Shown: positions 11,646-30,845 of the stretch, piece after piece | Numbering within the stretch: the first letter of the stretch is position 1 | Layout: each line of letters begins with the position of its first letter | UHGV virus genome: UHGV-1487493 | Reading direction: 5' to 3' (one strand) | Length of the DNA: 36,569 bases | DNA from: a virus | Made by a program: the position numbers and the translations under genes | Notes under the pieces: generated by a model | Database searches by the model: none | The model's input: only the letters and a program-made list of their open reading frames with translations | What the model was told of the DNA's origin: nothing

Positions 11646-13167
11646 TCTTATTCACTTCAGGCCTTCGTGGTTCTGGCTTATCATTTGTTTCTTCCTTAAT
11701 ACGTTTTAGTTCGACATCGGGATTGACACCCGTTACTGTAGACAATATTTCAAATAGTGTTTCATCTGAAACTTGTCCAACTAATTGACTAGCTAATGAA
11801 ACAATCTCGTTATCTGATTTAGGAACATTCGCAGTAAATATAATATTCGTATTATTAATATCATTGTAAGCTGTTGAATCGTTCCCTTTTATTTGCCAAA
11901 TATTAATAGCTAGGCGCAATCGTCTCATCAAACCTTTTTCAAATAAGCGCTGTTGCATAACCCGCCGATTATCCGCAGCCATTAACTTGTATTTCATACT
12001 CTCACCTGATTGTGTACCACTGAAATTGGCATCCAATGTATCTGGTGTAAAAGTAAATCGTAAAATATCATTAACCAATCTTTTCTTATAAGTCTCTGCA
12101 CCTTCTGAGTCATATTCTTTTATGAGATATTTTGCATCAGGTTCTGATCCGTTTGGATTTGGATTATCATCTAAAATCATTATTCGTGCTTTTTTGAAAG
12201 CTAAAGAAACAGCTAACCGTGAATTAGGAACAATATTACCATCTTCATCTAAGTCATTTTGAGCAGTCCCTGTGTATGGATTTCCTTTGATAAGCAAAAT
12301 AGCGTCCATTGTGTCCTGCTGATAATTAGCTAACTCAGATTGAGACAAATCATAAGCATCAATTGAATCTAAAACAGGTTCGTATGCACCTGTACGGTCT
12401 TCATTATTTGCGAATTCATTAATAGGTACGCCATTAAACGCATAATCTTCAAAGTCTAATAATGTCAATCCCTTTTTATTCTGGTTGTCATTGACATAGA
12501 TGTATAACATGTCAGATGTATAAACGTTTATAAAATCCTTACGCACCCCATCGCCATAATCTATTGAATAATAATAAACACCAAATAAAGAATTACTGTC
12601 AGTCGTATCATCATATACAATGAATGTCTGCTCTGGGTTTAATTTAACTAGTTTTACAAACGCTTGTTCATCTTGTAAAGCAATTGTTTCCAACTCGTAG
12701 GCTCTGCCATAGATTGACAAATCGGTTTTGATAAGTACGTTGTGATAGGCTTCGTTGTTTTGCTTATTGAAGTCATCGATTTTTTCTTGCAGTTCATCAT
12801 TTTCATTTTTGTACTGGACCGGCTGTCCCAACATATAGCCTTGCTCAAAAATAGTGATATATCTAGCAAAATCACTTGCTATTCTATTGTCGGCAGCGTA
12901 TTCATCAGTTTTTGGAGGACGATATTTGATGTTATTATCTGCTAAGTAATAGCGTTTAAGCTCTTTTAAACGTGGCACTTGTTCAGCAAGATGTCGATTA
13001 ACAAATCTTTTTAGTTGAGTAATCCATGTTTCACTATCAAATTCTAGGCTTTCAAAATCTTCCTGTGCCATTCTAAAAACCGCATTCGCATTTTTATGAT
13101 ACCTGTGATTTCTTAAAAACGTTACTTCATTCTTTTTATTCACTTTTTCATCCCTTTCTTTATCCAA
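11584..13167 (-). CDS. Portal protein
   Basis: 527 aa immediately downstream of (and overlapping) the large terminase; acidic C-terminal tail. Confidence 0.85.
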   Translation of the reverse strand: MDKERDEKVNKKNEVTFLRNHRYHKNANAVFRMAQEDFESLEFDSETWITQLKRFVNRHLAEQVPRLKELKRYYLADNNIKYRPPKTDEYAADNRIASDFARYITIFEQGYMLGQPVQYKNENDELQEKIDDFNKQNNEAYHNVLIKTDLSIYGRAYELETIALQDEQAFVKLVKLNPEQTFIVYDDTTDSNSLFGVYYYSIDYGDGVRKDFINVYTSDMLYIYVNDNQNKKGLTLLDFEDYAFNGVPINEFANNEDRTGAYEPVLDSIDAYDLSQSELANYQQDTMDAILLIKGNPYTGTAQNDLDEDGNIVPNSRLAVSLAFKKARIMILDDNPNPNGSEPDAKYLIKEYDSEGAETYKKRLVNDILRFTFTPDTLDANFSGTQSGESMKYKLMAADNRRVMQQRLFEKGLMRRLRLAINIWQIKGNDSTAYNDINNTNIIFTANVPKSDNEIVSLASQLVGQVSDETLFEILSTVTGVNPDVELKRIKEETNDKPEPRRPEVNKNEMGNDDDEREAAKGINEDE

Positions 13168-14452
13168 AGAAGAACTTGGCAGCGTCCATACGTTCCTCTA
13201 ATGATTGTGGATTCTTCAAGCTTAAGGTCCTAAGGAGACTGGCCGCGCTGTCTGGTGCATCGTCATGTTCTGCATTTTCTGTATAGTCCAAAATTTCGGC
13301 AATGTACTCTTTATCTGTATCTTCTAACCAAATAATCAAGTGCCAGTACTTACGCAAATAAGTAGATATTTTAATAAATTTATTCATAGATTCATGATAT
13401 TCAGTAACAAACTGACCGCACTCACGTAAATTCTTAGCTAAGTACCCTTTGTCTCCGTTCGTTTCTGTGTGGAAAGTTCCTGCCTGGTAGTGTTGATGCA
13501 ATCGCAAAATTTCAGGCAAGCAATCATCCACATGTTTCTGCCACTTCCTACCATATCCAATAATTGTTCCATCTTTTTGTTCTTTGAAGATGGTTAAGGC
13601 TGTGCTGTCATCGCCACCATAAGCCGCGTCGATGTGTGCTACACCGTTATAAATAAGATTAATACTGTCGGTATAGGTTGGTGCAGTAAATAGCGATTCA
13701 CTGTCAGCAATATGTTTTAGCTCATAGTTTGCCGCAAATAATGATGGTGTCATTGCTTGTTGCAATGCCTGACGTTGTTCTTTGTCAATTAATCCTGTTT
13801 CGTAACAATCGAATTTCTTGACGTTAGGCATTTTAGAGATTGCGTCTTCTTTGTGCCATGGTGTACCTGTGTTAATAAAACGACCACCGCGATTTTTAAC
13901 GTTCTGCAATTCTTGATACTGAAGTTTCGTTCTCTCTCGTTCAGCTCGACTGACTCGGTCTTTAATGTTAACAATGTCATCAGTAATAACGATGTCCGCA
14001 TGTTTACCAGTCAGAGAAGCGTATATTCCCATACCGAGTAATTGAGAGGTTCCTCGGCTAGATGTTTTTAAGTTGGTATCTATTTCCGTGGTGGTCTCTT
14101 TCAAAAGCACTAATTCAACGCCATATAATGCAAATACAAGCGTTTTAAAGTATTTGCTAGATAAAACCTTAGCCACTTGTAAAATAATCTCTACGACGTC
14201 AGTATCAGTCTTACGTAAGAAGATAATGTTTTTATTTGGAAAAAGAACCATCAACAATGCAATTGCAATCGCCAAGGTAGTTGTTTTAAATGAGCCACGA
14301 TGAGCCAATAACGTTTGATCGTCTTTCTCAAACAAAAAAGACTTTAACCAATCATTGTGCAATTCTCCTAAATCGTTAAACCCCACTAAATTTCCAAAAA
14401 TTACCGGGTTCGTTTTGATTAGGTTCAAATATTTTCGCTTTTTAGGGCTCAT
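13160..14452 (-). CDS. terL: Terminase large subunit
   Basis: 430 aa; N-terminal ATPase region (..AHRGSFKTT..); position between TerS and portal. Confidence 0.9.
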   Translation of the reverse strand: MSPKKRKYLNLIKTNPVIFGNLVGFNDLGELHNDWLKSFLFEKDDQTLLAHRGSFKTTTLAIAIALLMVLFPNKNIIFLRKTDTDVVEIILQVAKVLSSKYFKTLVFALYGVELVLLKETTTEIDTNLKTSSRGTSQLLGMGIYASLTGKHADIVITDDIVNIKDRVSRAERERTKLQYQELQNVKNRGGRFINTGTPWHKEDAISKMPNVKKFDCYETGLIDKEQRQALQQAMTPSLFAANYELKHIADSESLFTAPTYTDSINLIYNGVAHIDAAYGGDDSTALTIFKEQKDGTIIGYGRKWQKHVDDCLPEILRLHQHYQAGTFHTETNGDKGYLAKNLRECGQFVTEYHESMNKFIKISTYLRKYWHLIIWLEDTDKEYIAEILDYTENAEHDDAPDSAASLLRTLSLKNPQSLEERMDAAKFFFG

Positions 14453-14898
14453 GTAGAATCATCCTCGAAAAACTGCTCGATTTCGACTGCTGCATCGGAA
14501 ATATTAAGCGATCCTGAAACCTCGGTTTCTCTTCGATCTCTCCACTCATCAGGCTTTCTGTTCTTAAGCCAGAAAATTGCGGATGTAGGGTTGGGCGCCA
14601 CTTGTTTCGTTACTTTTTTGGTTACTTCCATGCCCGCTTCTGTTAATTCTTTTGTAACTTCGGTGTATTCATAACCCACCGCACTTTTAAACAGTGCATT
14701 TTCAACTTGACGATCTACAACTTCTTTTCCTCTTTTGAGGGCGGAAGAAATGGAAGAAAACCTCTTTTTCCAATCGGTAAATGTCCGTTCGGATACTCCA
14801 ACATTTTGTGCGATTTGCTTATCGACGAGGCCATCTCGTGCCCACCCTTCGATTTTAATTAACCCTTCGTCAGTCAGCCACTCTGTGTACTTTGCCAT
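14449..14898 (-). CDS. terS: Terminase small subunit (P27 / Terminase_2 type, HTH)
   Basis: 149 aa with HTH and conserved ..PNPTSAIFWLKNRKPDEWRDRRE.. region; strong RBS AGGAGGTGAGG; overlaps terL start. Confidence 0.8.
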   Translation of the reverse strand: MAKYTEWLTDEGLIKIEGWARDGLVDKQIAQNVGVSERTFTDWKKRFSSISSALKRGKEVVDRQVENALFKSAVGYEYTEVTKELTEAGMEVTKKVTKQVAPNPTSAIFWLKNRKPDEWRDRRETEVSGSLNISDAAVEIEQFFEDDST

Positions 14899-15018
14899 GA
14901 CCTCACCTCCTATGTAATTTTATGTATAAAAAGAGACACCCAGCAAGTGGATGCCTCTCGTGAAGGATAGAAACATCTATTGACGTTTCCTAATTTATTT
15001 AAGTAGCTATGCTACCTA

Positions 15019-15091
15019 TTGGCGTGACAGGATTCGAACCCGCATCTTATCTCACACGTAATCAGTTGCATTACCACAATGCTACACGCCA
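15019..15091 (-). pseudogene. tRNA-like element: perfect acceptor and T arms, non-canonical anticodon arm (degenerate tRNA or remnant)
   Basis: Minus strand TGGCGTG-TA-GCAT..ATGC-..-GCGGGTTCGAATCCTGT-CACGCCA-A: 7-bp acceptor stem, D arm, GGTTCGAATCC T-loop; the 17-nt anticodon segment cannot form a 5-bp stem. Confidence 0.4.
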
Positions 15092-15337
15092 AACCAGAAG
15101 GAGCGACCTTCTAGCAATTGCTAATAAATCAAATTAACCTTTACACACTCTCGTCAGAATGTTTTCCCATCAGGACGTAGCTTTCGCAGACTTTCACGGC
15201 TAAAATGATTATGTCACTGGCAAGGATTTGCACCTTGCATGATTAGATTTATCCGATGGGCCAAAGCCCTACATACGAACTTATACGTTGTTCCAATGTC
15301 TAATCTCACGTACGAGCGTCTACCTATTCCGCCACAG

Positions 15338-15590
15338 TGACTAAACTTAACTCTCGCAAACCTGTAGAAAAAAGAGAGAGGAAATTCACCTCACTTCTTT
15401 AGTTTTATAATTGGTGGTTTGCGAGAGAATCTAAATGAGATCACAAGTGACTAAACGAAGAAAGTAGATTTTTTTACTTCCTTGTAATCTCAAATCAAAA
15501 AAATAAGTAGGCAATCGTTCCGTTAATGTATTTGTGTAAGTGTGTCGCATTTCTTATTTTTTTGACACTATCATAATAACCCGTTTAGAA
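15338..15590. repeat. Repeat block A (homologous to block B at 16026-16185); contains a GTGACTAAAC direct repeat flanking a 12-bp inverted repeat
   Basis: GTGACTAAAC at 15338-15347 and 15448-15457; ACTCTCGCAAACC (15351-15363) / GGTTTGCGAGAG (15417-15428) inverted repeat; segments GCAAAC-TGTAGAAAAAAGAG..ATTCACCTCACTTC and CATTTCTT..TTTTGA..ATAATA shared with block B. Confidence 0.6.
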
Positions 15591-15698
15591 GGTATATGAA
15601 GTGTAGATAAAGTGTATAAAAAAGGTATAAAAAGTGTAGCAAATGGCTACTTAAAAGCAACCAATTCCAGTGCCGAAGCAAATTGAACACTGCTTATT

Positions 15699-15962
15699 TT
15701 ATATTAATTTACGAAGTGTTTTACCTTCATCATTTAAGAGCCATACTGCAACAATTTTAAAATCTTCGTAATATGGCAGGTTAATTGCAGTTGTTTGCTC
15801 CTTGCCAAATGTAATGACAATCGGGTTACTATTGTTAAAAACTTTAACTGCGTCACTATCACAAGAAGTCCCTGAAACCCCTCCGATATAGTCCACTAAA
15901 AGTTTCGCTGCTTCTTTACCTTCTAATTCTTTTTTATTAAACTTATCAATTTGCAATAACAT
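15699..15962 (-). CDS. Hypothetical protein (87 aa)
   Basis: ATG at 15962 with an AAAGGAAG RBS; located between repeat blocks B and A. Confidence 0.4.
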   Translation of the reverse strand: MLLQIDKFNKKELEGKEAAKLLVDYIGGVSGTSCDSDAVKVFNNSNPIVITFGKEQTTAINLPYYEDFKIVAVWLLNDEGKTLRKLI

Positions 15963-16025
15963 ATAAATCTTCCTTTCTGTCTGTCTTTTTTTGCATATGC
16001 TAGCAATCGCCAAATATATCCCTTG

Positions 16026-16185
16026 CAAACTTGTAGAAAAAAGAGGAGGTTATTCACCTCACTTCATTTTATTGAGAACGTATGTCTGCAAGTGACCATC
16101 GAAAGACAAAGTGAACGGTGACTAAACGAGAAAGTGTGTACTGTGTCCATTTCTTTGACTTTTGATACTACCATAATACAACGGA
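16026..16185. repeat. Repeat block B (homologous to block A)
   Basis: GCAAACTTGTAGAAAAAAGAGGAGG..ATTCACCTCACTTC; GTGACTAAACGAGAAAGT at 16117; CATTTCTTTGACTTTTGATACTACCATAATA. Confidence 0.6.
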
Positions 16186-16223
16186 TTTCGAGTTAAAAAC
16201 CCTAAATAATCCCTAAAAAAACC

Positions 16224-16715
16224 CTAATTTTTTTGAACTATCAAATTTTCGTAATGGTAGGCTTCCGCAAATTCAATTAACGCATTGTCTTTCAGCTTTT
16301 CAATATTTTTAATGCTATAGCTTATTTCTTCCACTTGGCCAAACTCGTTTTCACGATATACTTTTATTGTTCTACTCAACTTAGCCATGCTGTATGGATT
16401 CGGTACACAATATGAATAGTATAATATTTCTCTCGAGACATCAGGCAACGATTTTAACGTATGCTCTATCGCTCTGACTTGCTCTCTACGTTGTCTAGCT
16501 GCCTCTATTGATAACTTAGACGTGTCTCTAAATAAATGAACCATACTTTCCTCAGCATTATTTCTGTTACTATGGTGTCGCGGCATATCAGATAATATAG
16601 GAGATTGCAAATGTACTTTTACACCACTCATTCGTTGTAGGCTTCGACAATTTTTTAATAATCTACGAACTTTATCTTTTGTTTTTTTGTAATCTATTTC
16701 TGGTACCAACGTCAT
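16224..16715 (-). CDS. arpU: ArpU-family phage late transcriptional regulator
   Basis: 163 aa; position upstream of the packaging genes; sequence characteristic of the ArpU family (..SDMPRHHSNRNNAEESMV..). Confidence 0.75.
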   Translation of the reverse strand: MTLVPEIDYKKTKDKVRRLLKNCRSLQRMSGVKVHLQSPILSDMPRHHSNRNNAEESMVHLFRDTSKLSIEAARQRREQVRAIEHTLKSLPDVSREILYYSYCVPNPYSMAKLSRTIKVYRENEFGQVEEISYSIKNIEKLKDNALIEFAEAYHYENLIVQKN

Positions 16716-16768
16716 AGCCTTGACTCCTCCTATATGGTATAATATTTTATGTGAAACATACCATCATT

Positions 16769-16800
16769 AGGAGTTACTTAGCGGAAACTGAGTAACTCCT
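16769..16800. other. Hairpin 1 (10-bp stem, loop TAGCGGAAACTG)
   Basis: AGGAGTTACT / AGTAACTCCT inverted repeat. Confidence 0.6.
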
Positions 16801-16895
16801 TTAATTTATGCAAATATACAAATGAAAGCTTATTCTTTGCTATTTAACCATTACTTATGATATTAATTATATTAAGAATAATATTCCAATAGTTA

Positions 16896-16921
16896 TTCAC
16901 TTCTCAGCCAGTCGGCGGAAA
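16896..16921. other. Hairpin 2 (9-bp stem, loop GCGGAAAA)
   Basis: AGCCAGTCG / CGACTGGCT inverted repeat. Confidence 0.6.
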
Positions 16922-16968
16922 ACGACTGGCTATTTATCTGGTAGAATATTCATCACTAATATGGTTTT

Positions 16969-16997
16969 AGTCAACCAGTGGTCGGTTGGCTTTTTTA
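16969..16997 (+). terminator. Rho-independent terminator-like hairpin on plus strand
   Basis: AGTCAACC-AGTGGTC-GGTTGGCT followed by TTTTTT. Confidence 0.5.
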
Positions 16998-17067
16998 TAC
17001 TTGATTTTTTATAATGGGTTTGGTATAAAAATACTATAAAAAATAAACTTAATATTATTTCTTACAG

Positions 17068-17098
17068 AACTACCTAGCGGAAACTAGGTAGTTTTTTT
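17068..17098 (+). terminator. Hairpin 3 (10-bp stem, loop CGGAAA) followed by T-run; plus-strand terminator-like
   Basis: AACTACCTAG-CGGAAA-CTAGGTAGTT-TTTTT. Confidence 0.55.
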
Positions 17099-17111
17099 AT
17101 ACTATCATTTA

Positions 17112-17312
17112 TTATTCTTCCAATGCCCATCCCATTAATTTACTCATTTCAAATACTACATTTCGTCTTACTCCAGTTGAAATACCTAGATAATTAAATT
17201 TTAAAACATCCCATTCTAAATCAGTTGTAACTGTTTCAACATGCCTAACATCTTCAAACTTCATTGTTTCACCAGTCGGTAGCCATATGATCAAACTTTT
17301 TGATTTTTCCAT
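17112..17312 (-). CDS. Hypothetical protein (66 aa)
   Basis: ORF at the end of the early operon. Confidence 0.4.
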   Translation of the reverse strand: MEKSKSLIIWLPTGETMKFEDVRHVETVTTDLEWDVLKFNYLGISTGVRRNVVFEMSKLMGWALEE

Positions 17313-17315
17313 TTA

Positions 17316-17888
17316 TTATCCCTCCACCTTCACAGCAAACGGCCAATAGCGCTCATCAATTGCTTTGATTACTGATTCAGTAAGTTTATATGCTGAATCG
17401 TGCCAATTTGTTAGTTCTTCATACTCAACAAGTCTAGCATCAGTTCTACCACTAAAAAGTTGCACTAAATATTTATGGTCAATAACTACTTTATACAACT
17501 GTTCTTTCTCGACTTCGTAGCCGTTATCAATGGCGCTCATTAGTTTTACTTTATTTTTTGGAACTGTAAGCCAGCTCTCTATTTTTTCAGTTAAAAACGA
17601 GTATTCTTCATCATAGTACCGCTCTAACTGTCTGCCGATGAACGTCATGAAAACAGCACCAGAATTTAACTTAACATTACTGATTTGACCTCTTAAACCA
17701 TCAAGCCAATCTGCCACAAATTTCTCTTCATGTGAAAATATGACTTTTCCCTGTACTTTGAGTTCTTTTATGACCTCAATTGCTGCATTTACTCCATCGT
17801 CATAACCTCTTGACCATTCATCTTCTGCATCGCAGCCTCCGATATCATAGAGCGCTTGAATTAAATCTTCTTTTTCTTGTTTATTCAT
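17316..17888 (-). CDS. DUF1642-like phage protein
   Basis: GGGAGGGG RBS before the ATG at 17888 (internal Met of the listed ORF); phage early-region family. Confidence 0.5.
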   Translation of the reverse strand: MNKQEKEDLIQALYDIGGCDAEDEWSRGYDDGVNAAIEVIKELKVQGKVIFSHEEKFVADWLDGLRGQISNVKLNSGAVFMTFIGRQLERYYDEEYSFLTEKIESWLTVPKNKVKLMSAIDNGYEVEKEQLYKVVIDHKYLVQLFSGRTDARLVEYEELTNWHDSAYKLTESVIKAIDERYWPFAVKVEG

Positions 17889-18141
17889 CGCTGCCCCTCC
17901 CAAAAAAGTCAACATTTCCTAGGATTTCTAATTCTCCATCTGGGTAAACATCTAACCAATCATGAGCACCAATAAAATTATTAAAGGCATTCAAACCTTT
18001 TGTTTTATGATGGTGATTTACTCCAAAACCGACTAATAAAATTTCACCTCGTAACGTTCGAACAACGTCATGATATTTAATTACTTTACCGTTCTTGTCT
18101 TTTACCTCTTCAACACAATTTTTGTAATTTTCATAACTCAT
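17881..18141 (-). CDS. Hypothetical protein (86 aa)
   Basis: ORF with overlapping stop/start coupling to neighbours. Confidence 0.4.
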   Translation of the reverse strand: MSYENYKNCVEEVKDKNGKVIKYHDVVRTLRGEILLVGFGVNHHHKTKGLNAFNNFIGAHDWLDVYPDGELEILGNVDFFGRGSDE

Positions 18142-25559: not shown

Positions 25560-25582
25560 TGGTTTACTTCCTTTCTGGTATA
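25560..25582. promoter_or_regulatory. Duplicated 23-bp element GTTTACTTCCTTTCTGGTATAAT, copy 1: RBS for the minus gene plus an extended -10 (TGgTATAAT) facing the plus gene
   Basis: Exact repeat of 26045-26067; the minus strand reads AAAGGAAG RBS 8 nt before the ATG at 25558; the plus strand reads TGGTATAAT. Confidence 0.5.
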
Positions 25583-25611
25583 ATTATTTTGAAAGCGAGG
25601 TGAAAAATATT

Positions 25612-25830
25612 ATGTTTACTTATATTTGTAACAAACAAGCAGACGATAAGGGGTTACACGAAGTGCATGTTTCAACATGTAAATACCTACCATCTACAGA
25701 ACGACAATTGGTAGTGGGCGAATATTCTTCTTGCCATGCAGCTATTCAGTCGCTTGAAGAAGCCAACGCTGGCAGAGGGTTTAAGTTCGATGGTTGTTAT
25801 TATTGTTGTAAACCTTGTCATCACGGTTAG
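25612..25830 (+). CDS. Small Cys/His-rich protein (72 aa), plus strand, antisense to the early operon
   Basis: GAGGTG RBS; C-terminus ..DGCYYCCKPCHHG; fills a 268-bp gap between minus-strand genes. Confidence 0.4.
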   Translation: MFTYICNKQADDKGLHEVHVSTCKYLPSTERQLVVGEYSSCHAAIQSLEEANAGRGFKFDGCYYCCKPCHHG

Positions 25831-26044: not shown

Positions 26045-26067
26045 GTTTACTTCCTTTCTGGTATAAT
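26045..26067. promoter_or_regulatory. Duplicated 23-bp element, copy 2, followed by an 8-bp-stem hairpin (CTTATCAG..CTGATAAG) in the plus leader
   Basis: Exact repeat of 25560-25582; the hairpin at 26072-26107 lies between the -10 and the RBS of the plus gene. Confidence 0.5.
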
Positions 26068-26119
26068 TTTCTTATCAGCAAGTGGTCTGCTGAAATAACT
26101 GATAAGGTGGTGAAATATT

Positions 26120-26398
26120 ATGAGTGTTTACGCTATTACCTATGATTTGAAAAAACCAAATCAAGATTATGATGATTTGAATGAAATAATTAAATCACTT
26201 GGTGCTTATTCAAAAAGATTTGATTCGTTCTGGTTAGTAGATTCCTCTTTAAGTGCATCTGAAATTCGAGATAAATTAAAGAAAGAAATCGATTCAGATG
26301 ATTCTTTGTTAGTGATTGAAACAAAAAAACACTGGGCTTCTTTTAATCTAGCTGAAGGTGCCTGTAAGTGGCTAAAAAGCGAATCTAGAACTTTTTAA
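26120..26398 (+). CDS. Small alpha/beta protein with Cas2-like sequence pattern (92 aa), plus strand
   Basis: AAGGTGG RBS; pattern VYAITYDL..LG..KRFDSFWL..L..EI..L......DSLLVIE resembles the Cas2/ferredoxin-like fold consensus. Confidence 0.4.
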   Translation: MSVYAITYDLKKPNQDYDDLNEIIKSLGAYSKRFDSFWLVDSSLSASEIRDKLKKEIDSDDSLLVIETKKHWASFNLAEGACKWLKSESRTF

Positions 26399-27307: not shown

Positions 27308-27721
27308 ATGAATACATTGGAAAGAATAAAGTTACTTGCTAAACAAAGAGGAATCACGCTCAAAGAACTTGCTAGCAAAGTTGGTATAGGGGAAAATTCT
27401 CTTTACCGTTGGGATAAAACAAGCCCTCAGTCTGACAAATTACAAAAAGTAGCAGATTATTTTGATGTTTCCACTGACTATTTACTTGGTCGTACTGAAA
27501 AGAAAAAATATTATGAGTTATCCGATAAAGAAAAGAAGGATATTGCTATTCAAGCAGAAGAATTAATTGAAGGGATAGCTAATGGCGAAAATCTTAATTT
27601 TTACGGTGAACCAGCTACTCAAGAACAAAAAGACCGTCTTTTAATTGCTATACGTACTGCGATGGAAATGAACAAAGAAGAAGCCAAAAAGAAATTCACA
27701 CGTAAAGATTATAGAAACTAA
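27308..27721 (+). CDS. CI-like XRE-family repressor without a peptidase domain (ImmR type)
   Basis: N-terminal HTH ..ITLKELASKVGIGENSLYRWD..; followed by an ImmA-type protease gene. Confidence 0.75.
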   Translation: MNTLERIKLLAKQRGITLKELASKVGIGENSLYRWDKTSPQSDKLQKVADYFDVSTDYLLGRTEKKKYYELSDKEKKDIAIQAEELIEGIANGENLNFYGEPATQEQKDRLLIAIRTAMEMNKEEAKKKFTRKDYRN

Positions 27722-28710: not shown

Positions 28711-29874
28711 ATGGCAATGATTAGGCAATATCAAAAGAAAAGCGGCGAAAAAGCATGGTACTTCAAAACATATCTTGGGATTGATCCACTAACTAAAAAA
28801 AAGAAATACACTACCAAGAGAGGATTTAAAACACAAAAAGAAGCAAAAATTGCATTGGCAAGATTAGAGATGGAGATTGAACGTAACGGAATAAAGCAAT
28901 CTTCTTCTATAACATTTCAAGAGATAGCAGTAATGTGGCTTGAAAACTACAAAAATACAGTTAAAGATAGTAGCTATTCTCGTACTAACATAATTTTCAA
29001 TAAACATATTTTTCCTCACTTCGGAAAAATTGAAATAGCAAAAATAAATACAGCTTATTGTCAAAAAGTAGTTAATAACTGGCACACTAACGGGACATCA
29101 AAACAATATCCTTTATTTTTAAATTATATGAATAAAGTTTTTAAGTTTGCTATAAATATGGGAGTTACCGCCGAAAACCCAACAACAAATGTAATCATCC
29201 CAAAGAATAAGGAAACTGCAAATCCTAAAGATACGAAAATAAAATTTTACAACAAAGACCAATTAAAAAAATTTTTAGAGTGTATACATCAACAGCCGCA
29301 AGAAAATAATTATATAACTATCAGAGATTATACACTATTTAGATTATTGTCTTTCAGTGGATGTAGAATAGGAGAATTACTAGCACTAACCTGGGATGAT
29401 TTAAACTTAGAAACAGGAGAATTGCAAATAAATAAAACCGTTACTAAATCGGATACGTATTATGTATCCTCCACCCCAAAAACAAAAAAATCAAATAGAA
29501 TAATCATATTAGATAGAATCACTTTAGAGTGTCTTAAGAAATGGAGATCAGAACAGAAGAAGTTTCTTTTTAAGTTGGGTTTCACTCAACCTTCAAGAAT
29601 TTTTACTAATGACTCTAATGAGTTCACTATTAATCAATCCGTTACAGAAAGGTATAAGATATATCAAAAAAAAGCAAATTTACCTAATATAGGCTTACAT
29701 GGATTTAGACATACGCACGCCTCACTGTTATACAATGCTGGCGCTGATCATAAAGAAGTACAAGAACGTCTCGGGCACGCTAATATAAAGACTACGTTAG
29801 ACACCTACACACATTTAACAGATGATAGAAAAGAAGTGACTACTGAAAAATTAGCTAACTACATCGGTTTTTGA
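28711..29874 (+). CDS. int: Tyrosine integrase
   Basis: 387 aa; C-terminal catalytic ..HGFRHTHASLL..HANIKTTLDTYTHL.. (R..HxxR..Y). Confidence 0.9.
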   Translation: MAMIRQYQKKSGEKAWYFKTYLGIDPLTKKKKYTTKRGFKTQKEAKIALARLEMEIERNGIKQSSSITFQEIAVMWLENYKNTVKDSSYSRTNIIFNKHIFPHFGKIEIAKINTAYCQKVVNNWHTNGTSKQYPLFLNYMNKVFKFAINMGVTAENPTTNVIIPKNKETANPKDTKIKFYNKDQLKKFLECIHQQPQENNYITIRDYTLFRLLSFSGCRIGELLALTWDDLNLETGELQINKTVTKSDTYYVSSTPKTKKSNRIIILDRITLECLKKWRSEQKKFLFKLGFTQPSRIFTNDSNEFTINQSVTERYKIYQKKANLPNIGLHGFRHTHASLLYNAGADHKEVQERLGHANIKTTLDTYTHLTDDRKEVTTEKLANYIGF

Positions 29875-30771: not shown

Positions 30772-30845
30772 TGGACCATACAGGACTCGAACCTATGACC
30801 TAACCGTTATGAGCGATTGGCTCTAACCAACTGAGCTAATGGTCC
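30772..30845 (-). tRNA. tRNA with CAT anticodon (Met elongator or Ile2/lysidine type)
   Basis: Minus strand GGACCAT-TA-GCTC-AGTTGGTTA-GAGC-C-AATCG-CTCATAA-CGGTT-AGGTC-ATAGG-TTCGAGT-CCTGT-ATGGTCC-A; G1-C72 paired so not an initiator; Ile-like D arm. Confidence 0.85.

What the first reader, a model, noticed from the sequence alone, without database searches (positions are those of the whole stretch)
16716..17111. 400-bp intergenic region between early and late genes with three hairpins sharing a CGGAAA loop but different stems, plus plus-strand terminators facing the wrong way
Hairpins at 16769-16800 (stem AGGAGTTACT), 16896-16921 (stem AGCCAGTCG) and 17068-17098 (stem AACTACCTAG) have unrelated stem sequences but loops containing GCGGAAAC / GCGGAAAA / CGGAAA. 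A structured element with a conserved loop and covarying stems suggests a functional RNA or a protein-recognition hairpin rather than chance.

The hairpins at 16969-16997 and 17068-17098 are each followed by a T-run on the plus strand only. They would therefore terminate plus-strand (antisense) transcripts, yet every neighbouring gene is on the minus strand. The region may encode a small plus-strand RNA, stop antisense transcription entering the late operon, or hold recognition hairpins for the ArpU regulator or an antiterminator.
Basis: seen in the sequence. Interest (0 to 1): 0.55.

Follow-up and report, generated by a model that had tools for sequence, protein, structure and literature searches.

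The report
Prophage small-RNA genes facing arpU
The 400-bp gap upstream of the late-gene activator gene arpU in this Enterococcus faecalis prophage holds three tiny non-coding RNA genes on the opposite strand. Their terminators are the "wrong-way" hairpins, and their shared CGGAAA loop is a widespread motif whose function is not known.

Summary
One hairpin is mis-placed by 10 nt: it lies at 16906-16931, not 16896-16921.

The spacer has no ORF of 20 aa or more. It carries three + strand units, each with a sigma-A promoter, a short leader, one or more hairpins and a U-tract:
- sRNA-1, about 16751-16808
- sRNA-2, about 16874-16997
- sRNA-3, about 17036-17100

The + strand is the strand of the integrase and repressor genes.

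sRNA-2 is a diverged homologue of the validated E. faecalis sRNA Ref1C (Rfam RF02845, 55 bits, below the gathering score of 90). Published dRNA-seq of strain V583 covers a homologous prophage, pp4. It maps + strand transcription starts exactly at the equivalents of promoters P1 and P2. It also maps a weak arpU start that gives a 144-nt leader. sRNA-1 is therefore antisense to the arpU leader, and P2 overlaps the arpU promoter back-to-back.

I infer a brake on ArpU that is expressed during lysogeny. This has not been tested.

The CGGAAA loop, and a second loop AGUGGUC, stay invariant while the stems covary. This holds across many Bacilli phages and in chromosomal Ref1C. What binds these loops is unknown. 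I found no support for an ArpU-binding or antiterminator role.

The parts
16735..16743 (+). P1: extended -10 box TGGTATAAT of sRNA-1. It abuts the arpU ribosome-binding site on the other strand.
   Evidence: Seen. The homologous box in V583 pp4 has a mapped + strand start (TSS) 8 nt downstream, at 1952877. Alignment A1 places the window TSS at about 16751.
16751..16808 (+). sRNA-1, about 58 nt: an 18-nt leader, hairpin H1 (16769-16800, loop CGGAAA) and a U-rich tail. It is antisense to the arpU 5' leader.
   Evidence: The comparison with the pp4 type shows 1 compensatory change and 4 wobble changes, with none broken. The 5' end is set by homology to the mapped TSS. The 3' end is predicted.
16837..16866 (+). 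P2: -35 TTGCTA (16837-16842), an 18-nt spacer, then TG-A-TATTAA (16858-16866). This is the promoter of sRNA-2.
   Evidence: The homologous promoter in V583 pp4 has an orphan + strand TSS at 1953002 with height 1603. Alignment A1 puts the window TSS at 16874.
16874..16997 (+). sRNA-2, about 124 nt, Ref1C-like: leader, internal hairpin H2 (16906-16931, loop GCGGAAAA), linker, terminator (16969-16991, loop AGUGGUC) and U6.
   Evidence: Rfam RF02845 Ref1C matches 16856-17001 on the + strand at 55 bits, E 1.4e-7, over the full model. Covariation of both helices is shown in A3.
16858..16870 (-). arpU promoter core: the -10 TATAAT lies on the - strand at 16870-16865 and the inferred arpU TSS at 16858. 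The -10 overlaps the P2 -10 by 2 bp, and the two starts are divergent and 16 bp apart.
   Evidence: The V583 pp4 primary TSS of EF2024 (ArpU) is at 1952986 on the - strand, with a 144-nt 5'UTR and height 23. The sequence is conserved in the window.
16716..16858 (-). Inferred 143-nt 5' leader of arpU mRNA. It includes the complement of sRNA-1.
   Evidence: This rests on homology and was not measured in this phage.
17001..17029 (+). P3 (predicted): -35 TTGATT (17001-17006), a 17-nt spacer, then TGgTATAAA (17021-17029).
   Evidence: Read from the sequence (D9). It is not homologous to the pp4 unit-3 promoter, so it has no experimental support.
17036..17100 (+). sRNA-3, about 65 nt (predicted): leader, hairpin H3 (17066-17095, loop CGGAAA) and U7. 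It is antisense to the 3' end of the last early gene.
   Evidence: The analogous H3-type unit in pp4 has its own + strand TSS at 1953538. The SEsuP-1 variant carries a C-G to G-U change that is valid only on the + strand.
16224..16715 (-). arpU, the late-gene (packaging and lysis) transcriptional activator and the presumed regulatory target.
   Evidence: TIGR01637 at 69.8 bits against a cut-off of 43.1. phrog_248 transcriptional activator.

Best explanation
The spacer is a compact cluster of three small non-coding RNA genes on the lysogeny strand, the same strand as the integrase and repressor genes. Each gene is a sigma-A promoter (an extended -10 box), a short single-stranded leader, one or two hairpins and a U-tract.

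Shown, directly or by close homology:
- The structures are real.
- They are + strand RNAs with their own promoters.
- sRNA-2 is a diverged Ref1C-type RNA.
- In the homologous V583 prophage these promoters fire in the uninduced lysogen, 8- to 4000-fold more strongly than the arpU promoters.
- arpU is transcribed from its own weak promoter with a leader of about 143 nt.

Inferred:
- sRNA-1 is fully complementary to the middle of that leader.
- P2 and the arpU promoter share overlapping -10 boxes with divergent starts 16 bp apart.
- Together they would hold down ArpU, and so the packaging and lysis genes, during lysogeny. They would also set a threshold or delay after induction. The likely routes are promoter competition plus antisense pairing, giving duplex cleavage or leader remodelling.
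- The invariant CGGAAA loop, and the AGUGGUC loop of the sRNA-2 terminator, are apical recognition modules. They would serve loop-loop nucleation or bind an unidentified factor shared with the host sRNA Ref1C.
For: Structure and strand:
- Four + strand hairpins, three followed by runs of T and H2 by a T-rich tail, against 1.2 expected.
- G-U wobbles that would be A-C mismatches on the - strand.
- The Ref1C hit is on the + strand at E 1.4e-7.
- In an 11-sequence alignment that includes three chromosomal Enterococcus homologues, 13 of 19 pairs change on both sides. Pairing is 89.6% against 75.7% in shuffles (0 of 500 shuffles reach it).

Promoters and expression:
- V583 dRNA-seq maps + strand starts at 1952877, 1953002, 1953273 and 1953538, with heights 178, 1603, 92897 and 229.
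- It maps arpU starts at 1952986 and 1953135 on the - strand, with heights 23 and 20 and leaders of 144 and 293 nt.
- The published 51-nt upstream sequences match L001/L002 and align to the window's P1, P2 and arpU promoter.

Link to arpU:
- Three different ArpU alleles each have an opposite-strand extended -10 box abutting the arpU ribosome-binding site, followed by a leader-plus-terminator RNA of about 55 nt. One of them uses an unrelated GGAA-loop hairpin.

Non-coding:
- No ORF of 20 aa or more lies in the spacer.

Precedent:
- Ref1C is a ncRNA of about 130 nt detected by Northern blot (PMC3074167).
Against: - No expression data exist for this exact prophage.
- The window's P3 is only predicted.
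- The U-tract of H1 is weak (UUUAAUUUAU).
- Folding energies do not favour the + strand in the window itself.
- No experiment links these RNAs to ArpU levels.
- The same loop motifs occur where no arpU is nearby: in chromosomal Ref1C, in terminators after endolysin genes, and in 5' hairpins of accessory genes. The loops must therefore have a role that cis-antisense control alone does not explain.
- The spacer could be a general landing site for accessory ("moron") transcription units.
Confidence: 0.6

Rival explanations
1. The RNAs are mainly trans-acting mimics or decoys. They would work through the CGGAAA and AGUGGUC loops on a host or phage partner shared with the core enterococcal sRNA Ref1C. 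That partner could be an RNA-binding protein, an RNase or a target RNA. On this view their position beside arpU is incidental, because the early/late junction is a hot spot for accessory units. This is not exclusive of the best explanation.
For: - The loops are invariant while the stems covary, including in chromosomal Ref1C homologues that have no antisense partner.
- Minimal two-hairpin versions exist whose 5' end is the CGGAAA hairpin itself (L076).
- Both loops top the loop census of terminator-like hairpins in the fetched phage loci: CGGAAA 23, AGTGGTC 7, TTCG 6.
- The related pp4 RNA is extremely abundant, with TSS height 92897.
Against: - No partner was identified.
- No complementary target beyond chance length exists in the window.
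- The conserved abutment of P1-like promoters to three different arpU alleles, one with a non-CGGAAA hairpin, argues that position matters.
Confidence: 0.3
2. The hairpins are simply strong unidirectional terminators (insulators). They would protect the early region from antisense transcription, and the short transcripts would be by-products without function. The CGGAAA loop would be favoured only because it makes a fast-folding, efficient terminator: a GGAA tetraloop flanked by a C-A mismatch.
For: - The same hairpin type ends late operons after endolysin genes in Mammaliicoccus-like phages.
- GGAA tetraloops are also common in these loci.
Against: - Each terminator has its own promoter 60-125 nt upstream, with mapped starts in the homologue.
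- CGGAAA and AGUGGUC hairpins also occur at 5' ends and inside RNAs without U-tracts (H2; L076; the cassette).
- The loop is kept in a core chromosomal sRNA.
Confidence: 0.1
3. The functional strand is the - strand. On this view the UUUCCG-loop hairpins in the early or arpU transcript are sites for an antiterminator, for ArpU or for processing.
For: The - strand RNA folds about as well in the window. The hairpins do lie in the arpU leader and in the early 3'UTR.
Against: - The wobble pattern gives three A-C mismatches in the - strand version of the pp4-type H1.
- U-tracts, promoters, the Rfam hit and the mapped starts are all on the + strand.
- ArpU-family activators act on DNA upstream of terS (PMC3753634; listed but not read here, so this rests on my own knowledge).
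- The motif occurs in contexts that lack arpU.
Confidence: 0.05
4. The feature acts at the DNA level, as cruciform or single-strand hairpins for replication priming, recombination or packaging. Examples would be an ssoA-like CS-6 loop (TAGCG) or a Chi-like AGCGG.
For: H1 and H3 contain TAGCGG, which resembles the CS-6 and B. subtilis Chi motifs. This resemblance is from my own knowledge only.
Against: - Only CGGAAA is conserved. Variants with CTG, CGG or CTA before it lack TAGCG and AGCGG.
- The hairpins are constantly associated with promoters and U-tracts.
- Transcription is mapped in the homologue.
Confidence: 0.03

Closest known systems
Ref1C (Rfam RF02845), an E. faecalis V583 sRNA; called sRNA_103 in Michaux et al. 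2020
   Same: sRNA-2 aligns over the whole 131-position model on the same strand. It has the central hairpin with the GGCGGAAAAC loop, a terminator with the AGUGGUC loop and a U-tract. Its length is about 124 nt against 130 nt.
   Different: - It scores 55 bits, below the gathering score of 90.
- Its 5' hairpin is poor.
- It lies in a prophage next to arpU. Ref1C lies in the chromosome at 2405867-2405996, and in other enterococci the homologue sits next to a MOP-flippase gene.
- The function of Ref1C is itself unknown.
Phage antisense RNAs that restrain lytic regulators: lambda paQ (anti-Q) and oop RNAs, and P22 sar
   Same: These are small RNAs made from their own promoter on the strand opposite a lytic regulator, ending at an intrinsic terminator, and thought to damp the regulator in favour of lysogeny. 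This comparison is from my own knowledge.
   Different: The host, sequence and regulator family (ArpU rather than Q or Ant) are all different. Here there are three tandem units plus an overlapping divergent promoter. No functional test exists.
E. faecalis pCF10 prgQ/prgX (Anti-Q) and the counter-transcripts of pIP501, pT181 and R1 (CopA/CopT)
   Same: They combine closely spaced opposing promoters with a short hairpin counter-transcript that meets its target by loop-loop contact through a 6-7-nt GC-containing loop. This comparison is from my own knowledge. Weak Rfam hits of sRNA-3 to ctRNA families are at chance level.
   Different: There is no sequence homology. No attenuator terminator is seen in the arpU leader. 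No YUNR motif is present in either loop.
Lysogeny-expressed ncRNAs of Listeria phage phi10403S (rliG, lasRNA)
   Same: These are prophage non-coding RNAs transcribed during lysogeny while the lytic genes are silent. Their function is unknown. Late genes in that phage depend on the activator LlgA (PMC7397523; LlgA role from the bioRxiv preprint read).
   Different: No sequence relation was shown, and rliG was not detected in my loci.
Lambda boxB/N-type hairpins
   Same: A short stem capped by a purine-rich GNRA-like loop (GGAAA compared with GAAAA).
   Different: The element here is on the wrong strand for lytic transcripts and is followed by U-tracts. No N-like protein is known. The hexaloop begins with an invariant C.

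Membership tests
Ref1C sRNA (Rfam RF02845) | Covariance-model score at or above the curated gathering score of 90 bits | tested here: not met
   55.0 bits, E 1.4e-7, model positions 1-131, window 16856-17001 on the + strand. The chromosomal homologues in three other Enterococcus species also fail the gathering score, so the model is narrow.
Ref1C sRNA (Rfam RF02845) | Central hairpin with loop GGCGGAAAAC and a 3' terminator hairpin with loop AGUGGUC plus a U-tract | tested here: met
   Both loops are invariant in 11 sequences, and 13 of 19 stem pairs covary.
Ref1C sRNA (Rfam RF02845) | Expressed as an independent primary transcript of about 130 nt | tested here: inconclusive
   There are no data for this prophage. 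The homologous P2 in V583 pp4 has an orphan + strand TSS with height 1603.
Ref1C sRNA (Rfam RF02845) | Core-chromosome location | tested here: not met
   This copy lies inside a prophage, between arpU and the early genes.
Intrinsic (Rho-independent) terminator | GC-containing hairpin directly followed by a U-tract on the transcribed strand | tested here: met
   The scan found four on the + strand of the spacer against 1.2 expected. The tracts of H3 (T7) and the 16969-16991 hairpin (T6) are strong. The tracts of H1 and H2 are interrupted.
cis-antisense regulatory RNA | Transcript overlaps the target mRNA on the opposite strand | tested here: inconclusive
   sRNA-1 would cover about 16751-16808 and the arpU leader 16858-16716. 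Both 5' ends are transferred from mapped starts in V583 pp4 through alignment A1.
cis-antisense regulatory RNA | Changes the expression of the overlapped gene | not testable with these tools
   This needs promoter mutants or reporter fusions.
boxB/N-type antitermination site | Hairpin on the sense strand near the start of the regulated operon, bound by a phage antiterminator | tested here: not met
   The motif orientation is antisense to all lytic genes here and is always followed by T-tracts.
CsrA/Rsm-sequestering sRNA | Several hairpin loops that present GGA, plus a CsrA protein in the host | not tested
   GGA is present in the loops. Whether E. faecalis has CsrA was not checked. The strictly invariant CGGAAA exceeds what a GGA motif would require.

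The most novel reading that the evidence does not exclude
CGGAAA and AGUGGUC may form a two-loop "address code" read by an unidentified RNA-binding factor. That factor could be a host protein, an RNase or an RNA. The code would mark lysogeny-strand accessory transcripts of Bacilli prophages: sRNA terminators, 5'-terminal hairpins of a portable promoter/5'UTR cassette, and late-operon terminators. It would also mark the core host sRNA Ref1C. Prophage sRNAs such as the three found here would then be mimics of Ref1C, tapping or titrating its partner while also gating the late activator ArpU.
Probability: 0.25. Interest if true: 0.8.

Novelty: new variant of a known kind. Interest (0 to 1): 0.6.

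Why it matters
ArpU-family activators switch on packaging and lysis in many temperate phages of Gram-positive pathogens. How their own expression is kept off during lysogeny is poorly understood.

An sRNA and promoter-competition module abutting arpU, conserved across three arpU alleles, gives a directly testable control point. It bears on prophage induction and on transduction.

Separately, the two invariant loops define a family of RNA elements that has not been described. They link a core enterococcal sRNA of unknown function (Ref1C) to hundreds of prophage transcripts. That link gives a handle for finding Ref1C's partner.

The work also flags likely mis-annotated CDSs, such as phiFL1B gp33, that overlie highly expressed ncRNAs.

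Tried and rejected
- **Trans targets.** Complementary stretches for the three RNAs elsewhere in the window reach only 10-12 nt, which is chance level in AT-rich DNA.
- **Folding energy to choose the strand.** Both strands fold equally well.
- **Rfam at gathering threshold.** It finds only two tRNAs. An E-value scan of five other loci carrying CGGAAA units finds nothing.
- **Genome-wide pattern scan for Ref1C-like cores.** Of 19 hits, only 3 are real (Enterococcus). The rest are chance matches in high-GC genomes. The E. faecalis representative was missed by the exact pattern.
- **Literature search on the words CGGAAA, hairpin and phage.** Nothing relevant.
- **Small-peptide or type I toxin idea.** The only candidate is a 17-codon ATG frame at 16961. 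It has no Shine-Dalgarno sequence, it runs through the terminator, and its frame is not kept in the pp4 type.
- **Ideas from memory that fail on the variants:**
  - ssoA CS-6 or Chi (TAGCG/AGCGG): absent from the CTG-, CGG- and CTA-closed hairpins.
  - A T-box-like specifier plus UGGN: the discriminator base does not fit tRNA-Gly or tRNA-Arg.
  - An IRE-like CAGUG: the register does not fit.
  - Anti-Shine-Dalgarno pairing: CGGAAA has no complement in the 16S 3' tail. GUGGUC pairs with GAUCAC only through a G-U.
  - A pseudoknot between the loops and the linkers: not conserved.
- **TGGTAGAAT at 16939 as a separate promoter.** It aligns to the conserved Ref1C linker, so it is more likely part of sRNA-2.
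- **L020 as a Listeria phage.** I first thought so because of an rli28 hit. Its head protein is closest to Enterococcus phiFL3A, so no claim about Listeria is made.
- **V583 TSS table.** The window-type and GGAA-type promoters were not found in it.

Full report
**Context**

The window is an Enterococcus faecalis prophage of the phiFL1 type. The best match is CP124927.1 at 98.5%. Host DNA starts beyond about 30 kb.

Lytic genes run on the - strand:
- terL 13160-14452 and terS 14449-14898
- arpU 16224-16715, matching TIGR01637 at 69.8 bits against a cut-off of 43.1
- a DUF1642 gene at 17316-17915 and further early genes

An XRE-type repressor (27308-27721) and a tyrosine integrase (28711-29874) are on the + strand. 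The + strand is therefore the lysogeny strand.

**The observation**

The 396-bp spacer 16716-17111 contains no ORF of 20 aa or more in any frame. It holds four strong + strand hairpins:
- H1, 16769-16800: 13 bp, loop CGGAAA.
- H2, 16906-16931: 9 bp, loop GCGGAAAA.
- A hairpin at 16969-16991 with loop AGTGGTC, followed by T6.
- H3, 17066-17095: 12 bp, loop CGGAAA, followed by T7.

The terminator scan finds four on the + strand of the spacer (seven in the scanned region 14800-17400) against 1.2 expected. These are the only CGGAAA-loop hairpins in the window.

The loop is not a local oddity:
Of those hits, 99 extend to 7 bp or more, 88 have T-rich tails, and there are 26 different 5' arms.
- The reversed-loop control gives 16 hits, 1 extended and none with a T tail.

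**Which strand, and is it RNA?**

Folding energy does not decide the strand in the window. Four other lines do.

1. All the T-tracts follow the CGGAAA orientation.
2. The variant of H1 in phiFL1B, SEsuP-1 and V583 pp4 differs by one fully compensatory change (G-C to A-U) and four changes to or from G-U, with none broken. Three of those would be A-C mismatches on the - strand. The H3 variant carries a C-G to G-U change.
3. An Rfam E-value scan aligns 16856-17001 on the + strand to the whole model of Ref1C, "Enterococcus sRNA 1C". The score is 55 bits against a gathering score of 90, with E 1.4e-7. The model consensus contains GGCGGAAAAC in the central hairpin loop and AGUGGUC in the terminator loop. 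H2 and the 16969 terminator therefore belong to one RNA.
4. I aligned eleven such two-hairpin cores. They are the window type, the pp4 long RNA, four enterococcus-like phage variants, and chromosomal loci of three other Enterococcus species. Both loops are invariant. Thirteen of 19 stem pairs change on both sides. Pairing is 89.6% against 75.7% in shuffles (0 of 500 reach it), and it collapses when partners are slid.

Ref1C itself is a ncRNA of about 130 nt found by 5'tagRACE and Northern blot. It is present in all 25 E. faecalis genomes examined and has no known function (PMC3074167). It lies at V583 2405867-2405996 and equals sRNA_103 of Michaux et al.. In other enterococci the homologue sits, syntenic, next to a MOP-flippase gene.

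**Promoters and experimental support from a homologue**

Each hairpin unit is preceded by a good sigma-A signal on the + strand:
- P1: TGGTATAAT, 16735-16743.
- P2: TTGCTA, 18-nt spacer, TG-A-TATTAA, 16837-16866.
- P3: TTGATT, 17-nt spacer, TGgTATAAA, 17001-17029.

All four perfect TGNTATAAT boxes of the window lie on the + strand.

V583 prophage pp4 (EF1988-EF2043) carries the phiFL1B/SEsuP-1 version of this same region. Supplementary Table 1 of Michaux et al. 2020 (PMC7724050) gives dRNA-seq transcription starts with 51-nt upstream sequences, which I could match base for base to L001/L002. I read the height column as the TSSpredator step height. That reading is from my own knowledge of the format.

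| V583 position | Strand | Class in the table | Height | Corresponds to |
|---|---|---|---|---|
| 1952877 | + | antisense to EF2024 (ArpU) | 178 | P1 |
| 1953002 | + | orphan | 1603 | P2 |
| 1953273 | + | antisense to EF2025 | 92897 | a longer RNA with a GCGGAAAA hairpin and an AGUGGUC terminator, absent from the window |
| 1953538 | + | antisense to EF2025 | 229 | the H3-type unit |
| 1952986 | - | arpU primary, 144-nt leader | 23 | arpU promoter |
| 1953135 | - | arpU secondary, 293-nt leader | 20 | second arpU promoter, region absent from the window |

None of the four + strand starts appears in that paper's sRNA table, so the RNAs are unannotated there.

Transferred through alignment A1, the window coordinates are:
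- sRNA-1 starts at about 16751.
- sRNA-2 starts at 16874.
- arpU starts at 16858 on the - strand, giving a 143-nt leader.
- The arpU -10 box (TATAAT, 16870-16865 on the - strand) overlaps the P2 -10 box (16861-16866).

**Mechanism**

Shown:
- The three hairpins are parts of three small + strand transcription units.
- The "wrong-way" terminators end those units.

Inferred from geometry:
- sRNA-1 is perfectly complementary to positions of about +51 to +108 of the arpU leader, some 20 nt upstream of the ribosome-binding site.
- P2 and the arpU promoter cannot be occupied at once. In the homologue P2 is about 70-fold stronger.
- sRNA-3 is antisense to the 3' end of the early operon.

I therefore propose a brake on the late activator that is expressed during lysogeny. 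It would work by promoter competition plus antisense pairing.

A further observation supports a specific link to arpU. Three different ArpU alleles all pass TIGR01637: 163 aa in the window, 138 aa in pp4 and phiFL1B, and 155 aa in the L022-type loci. Each has an opposite-strand extended -10 box abutting the arpU ribosome-binding site, followed by a leader-plus-terminator RNA of about 55 nt. In the third allele the hairpin is unrelated and has a GGAA tetraloop. DNA homology between the window and phiFL1B begins exactly at P1, while the arpU genes themselves are not alignable.

**The loops**

Cis-antisense action does not explain why CGGAAA and AGUGGUC are invariant. The motifs also occur in these places:
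- In chromosomal Ref1C.
- As sense-strand terminators after endolysin genes in Mammaliicoccus-like phages.
- At the very 5' end of minimal two-hairpin RNAs (L076).
- For AGUGGUC, in a portable promoter/5'UTR cassette: TATAAT, about 7 nt, TCAGCR-AGTGGTC-YGCTGA, then AATAACTGATAAGGTGGTGA. It drives more than 40 different small + strand ORFs and gives at least 120 IMG/VR hits for a pattern I estimate would give about 0.01 by chance. One copy lies in this window at 26062-26093.

In a census of 291 unique terminator-like hairpins from the fetched loci, the two loops rank first and second. CGGAAA occurs 23 times, 8 of them not ascertained by the search pattern. AGTGGTC occurs 7 times and TTCG 6 times.

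About 30 kb of host chromosome held no other copy besides Ref1C.

I could not identify a partner. Several remembered analogies fail on the variants; they are listed under tried and rejected. My best guess is an apical recognition module for a factor shared with Ref1C. This is inference only.

**Comparison and novelty**

- sRNA-2 is a sub-threshold relative of a known Rfam family, carried on a prophage.
- The arrangement works like classical phage and plasmid counter-transcript controls (lambda paQ and oop, P22 sar, pCF10 Anti-Q, CopA) without being homologous to them.
- Lysogeny-expressed prophage ncRNAs of unknown function are also reported in Listeria phi10403S.
- To my knowledge three things are new: the arpU-abutting sRNA and promoter module, the three-unit cluster, and the recognition that two invariant loops tie a core host sRNA to a large set of prophage transcripts.

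**Verdict**

Part of it is explained by existing data from a homologue. The regulatory role and the meaning of the loops remain to be tested.

Noticed in passing
window 26059-26398 (+): This is a portable expression cassette: TGGTATAAT, 7 nt, a 5'-terminal hairpin TCAGCA-AGTGGTC-TGCTGA (26075-26093), then AATAACTGATAAGGTGGTGA and an ATG. It drives a + strand 92-aa ORF (26120-26398) set inside the - strand early genes. The ORF matches phrog_1090 and weakly matches Cas2 (PF09827, E 7e-4, below the cut-off). The same cassette, with covarying stems (TCAGCG/CGCTGA, TCAACG/CGTTGA, and one G-U variant), gives at least 120 IMG/VR hits and precedes more than 40 different small ORFs.
   Followed up: partly
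window 25576-25830 (+): This is a second + strand accessory gene. TGGTATAAT at 25576-25584 is followed by an ORF of about 70 aa (phrog_4298, with a HEVH...C...CCxxCH motif). Relatives of this protein are driven by the AGUGGUC cassette in other phages.
   Followed up: partly
L001 1916-2110 (phiFL1B; gp33 CDS at locus 1960-2151) and L002 1916-2145: The annotated CDS gp33 of phiFL1B overlies a + strand RNA. That RNA has a GCGGAAAA hairpin and an AGUGGUC- or AUUGGUC-loop terminator. Its promoter has one of the strongest starts in that part of the V583 table (1953273, height 92897). The reading frame is not kept in SEsuP-1, so the CDS is probably a mis-annotation of an abundant ncRNA.
   Followed up: partly
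L022 877-960; also L019, L100, L108, L109, L116: A different mini-sRNA sits against a 155-aa ArpU allele. It has TG(G/A)TATAAT, a leader of about 24 nt, the hairpin (A)GTCGGA-GGAA-TCCG(G/A)CT and a T-run. The -10 box abuts the arpU ribosome-binding site, just as P1 does.
   Followed up: yes
window 15018-15092 (-) and 30772-30845 (-): A phage-borne tRNA-Arg(ACG) lies between arpU and terS. The SEsuP-1 relative has tRNA-Asn at the same place. A tRNA-Met lies just outside the integrase end of the prophage and may be near the attachment site.
   Followed up: no
L020 8600-11100: In an enterococcus-like phage the analogous spacer is 2.5 kb long. It holds an array of at least five promoter-plus-terminator mini-units, two of them with CTG-CGGAAA-CAG terminators. 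It also holds a Ref1C-like RNA (35 bits) and type I toxin-antitoxin-like RNAs (rli28 at 133 bits, RatA at 48.9 bits, BsrG at 39.6 bits).
   Followed up: partly
window 17024-17067 (-): On the - strand an AU-rich 13-bp hairpin (17067-17034) followed by UAUUUUUAUA lies just after the stop codon of the last early gene and after H3's complement. It may be a weak terminator that separates early transcription from arpU. It overlaps the predicted P3.
   Followed up: no
L016 7737, L052 10874, L124 4093, L114 5687, L078 517: In Mammaliicoccus/Staphylococcaceae-like phages, CTATCTAG-CGGAAA-CTAGGTAG-type hairpins serve as sense-strand terminators directly after endolysin genes.
   Followed up: partly
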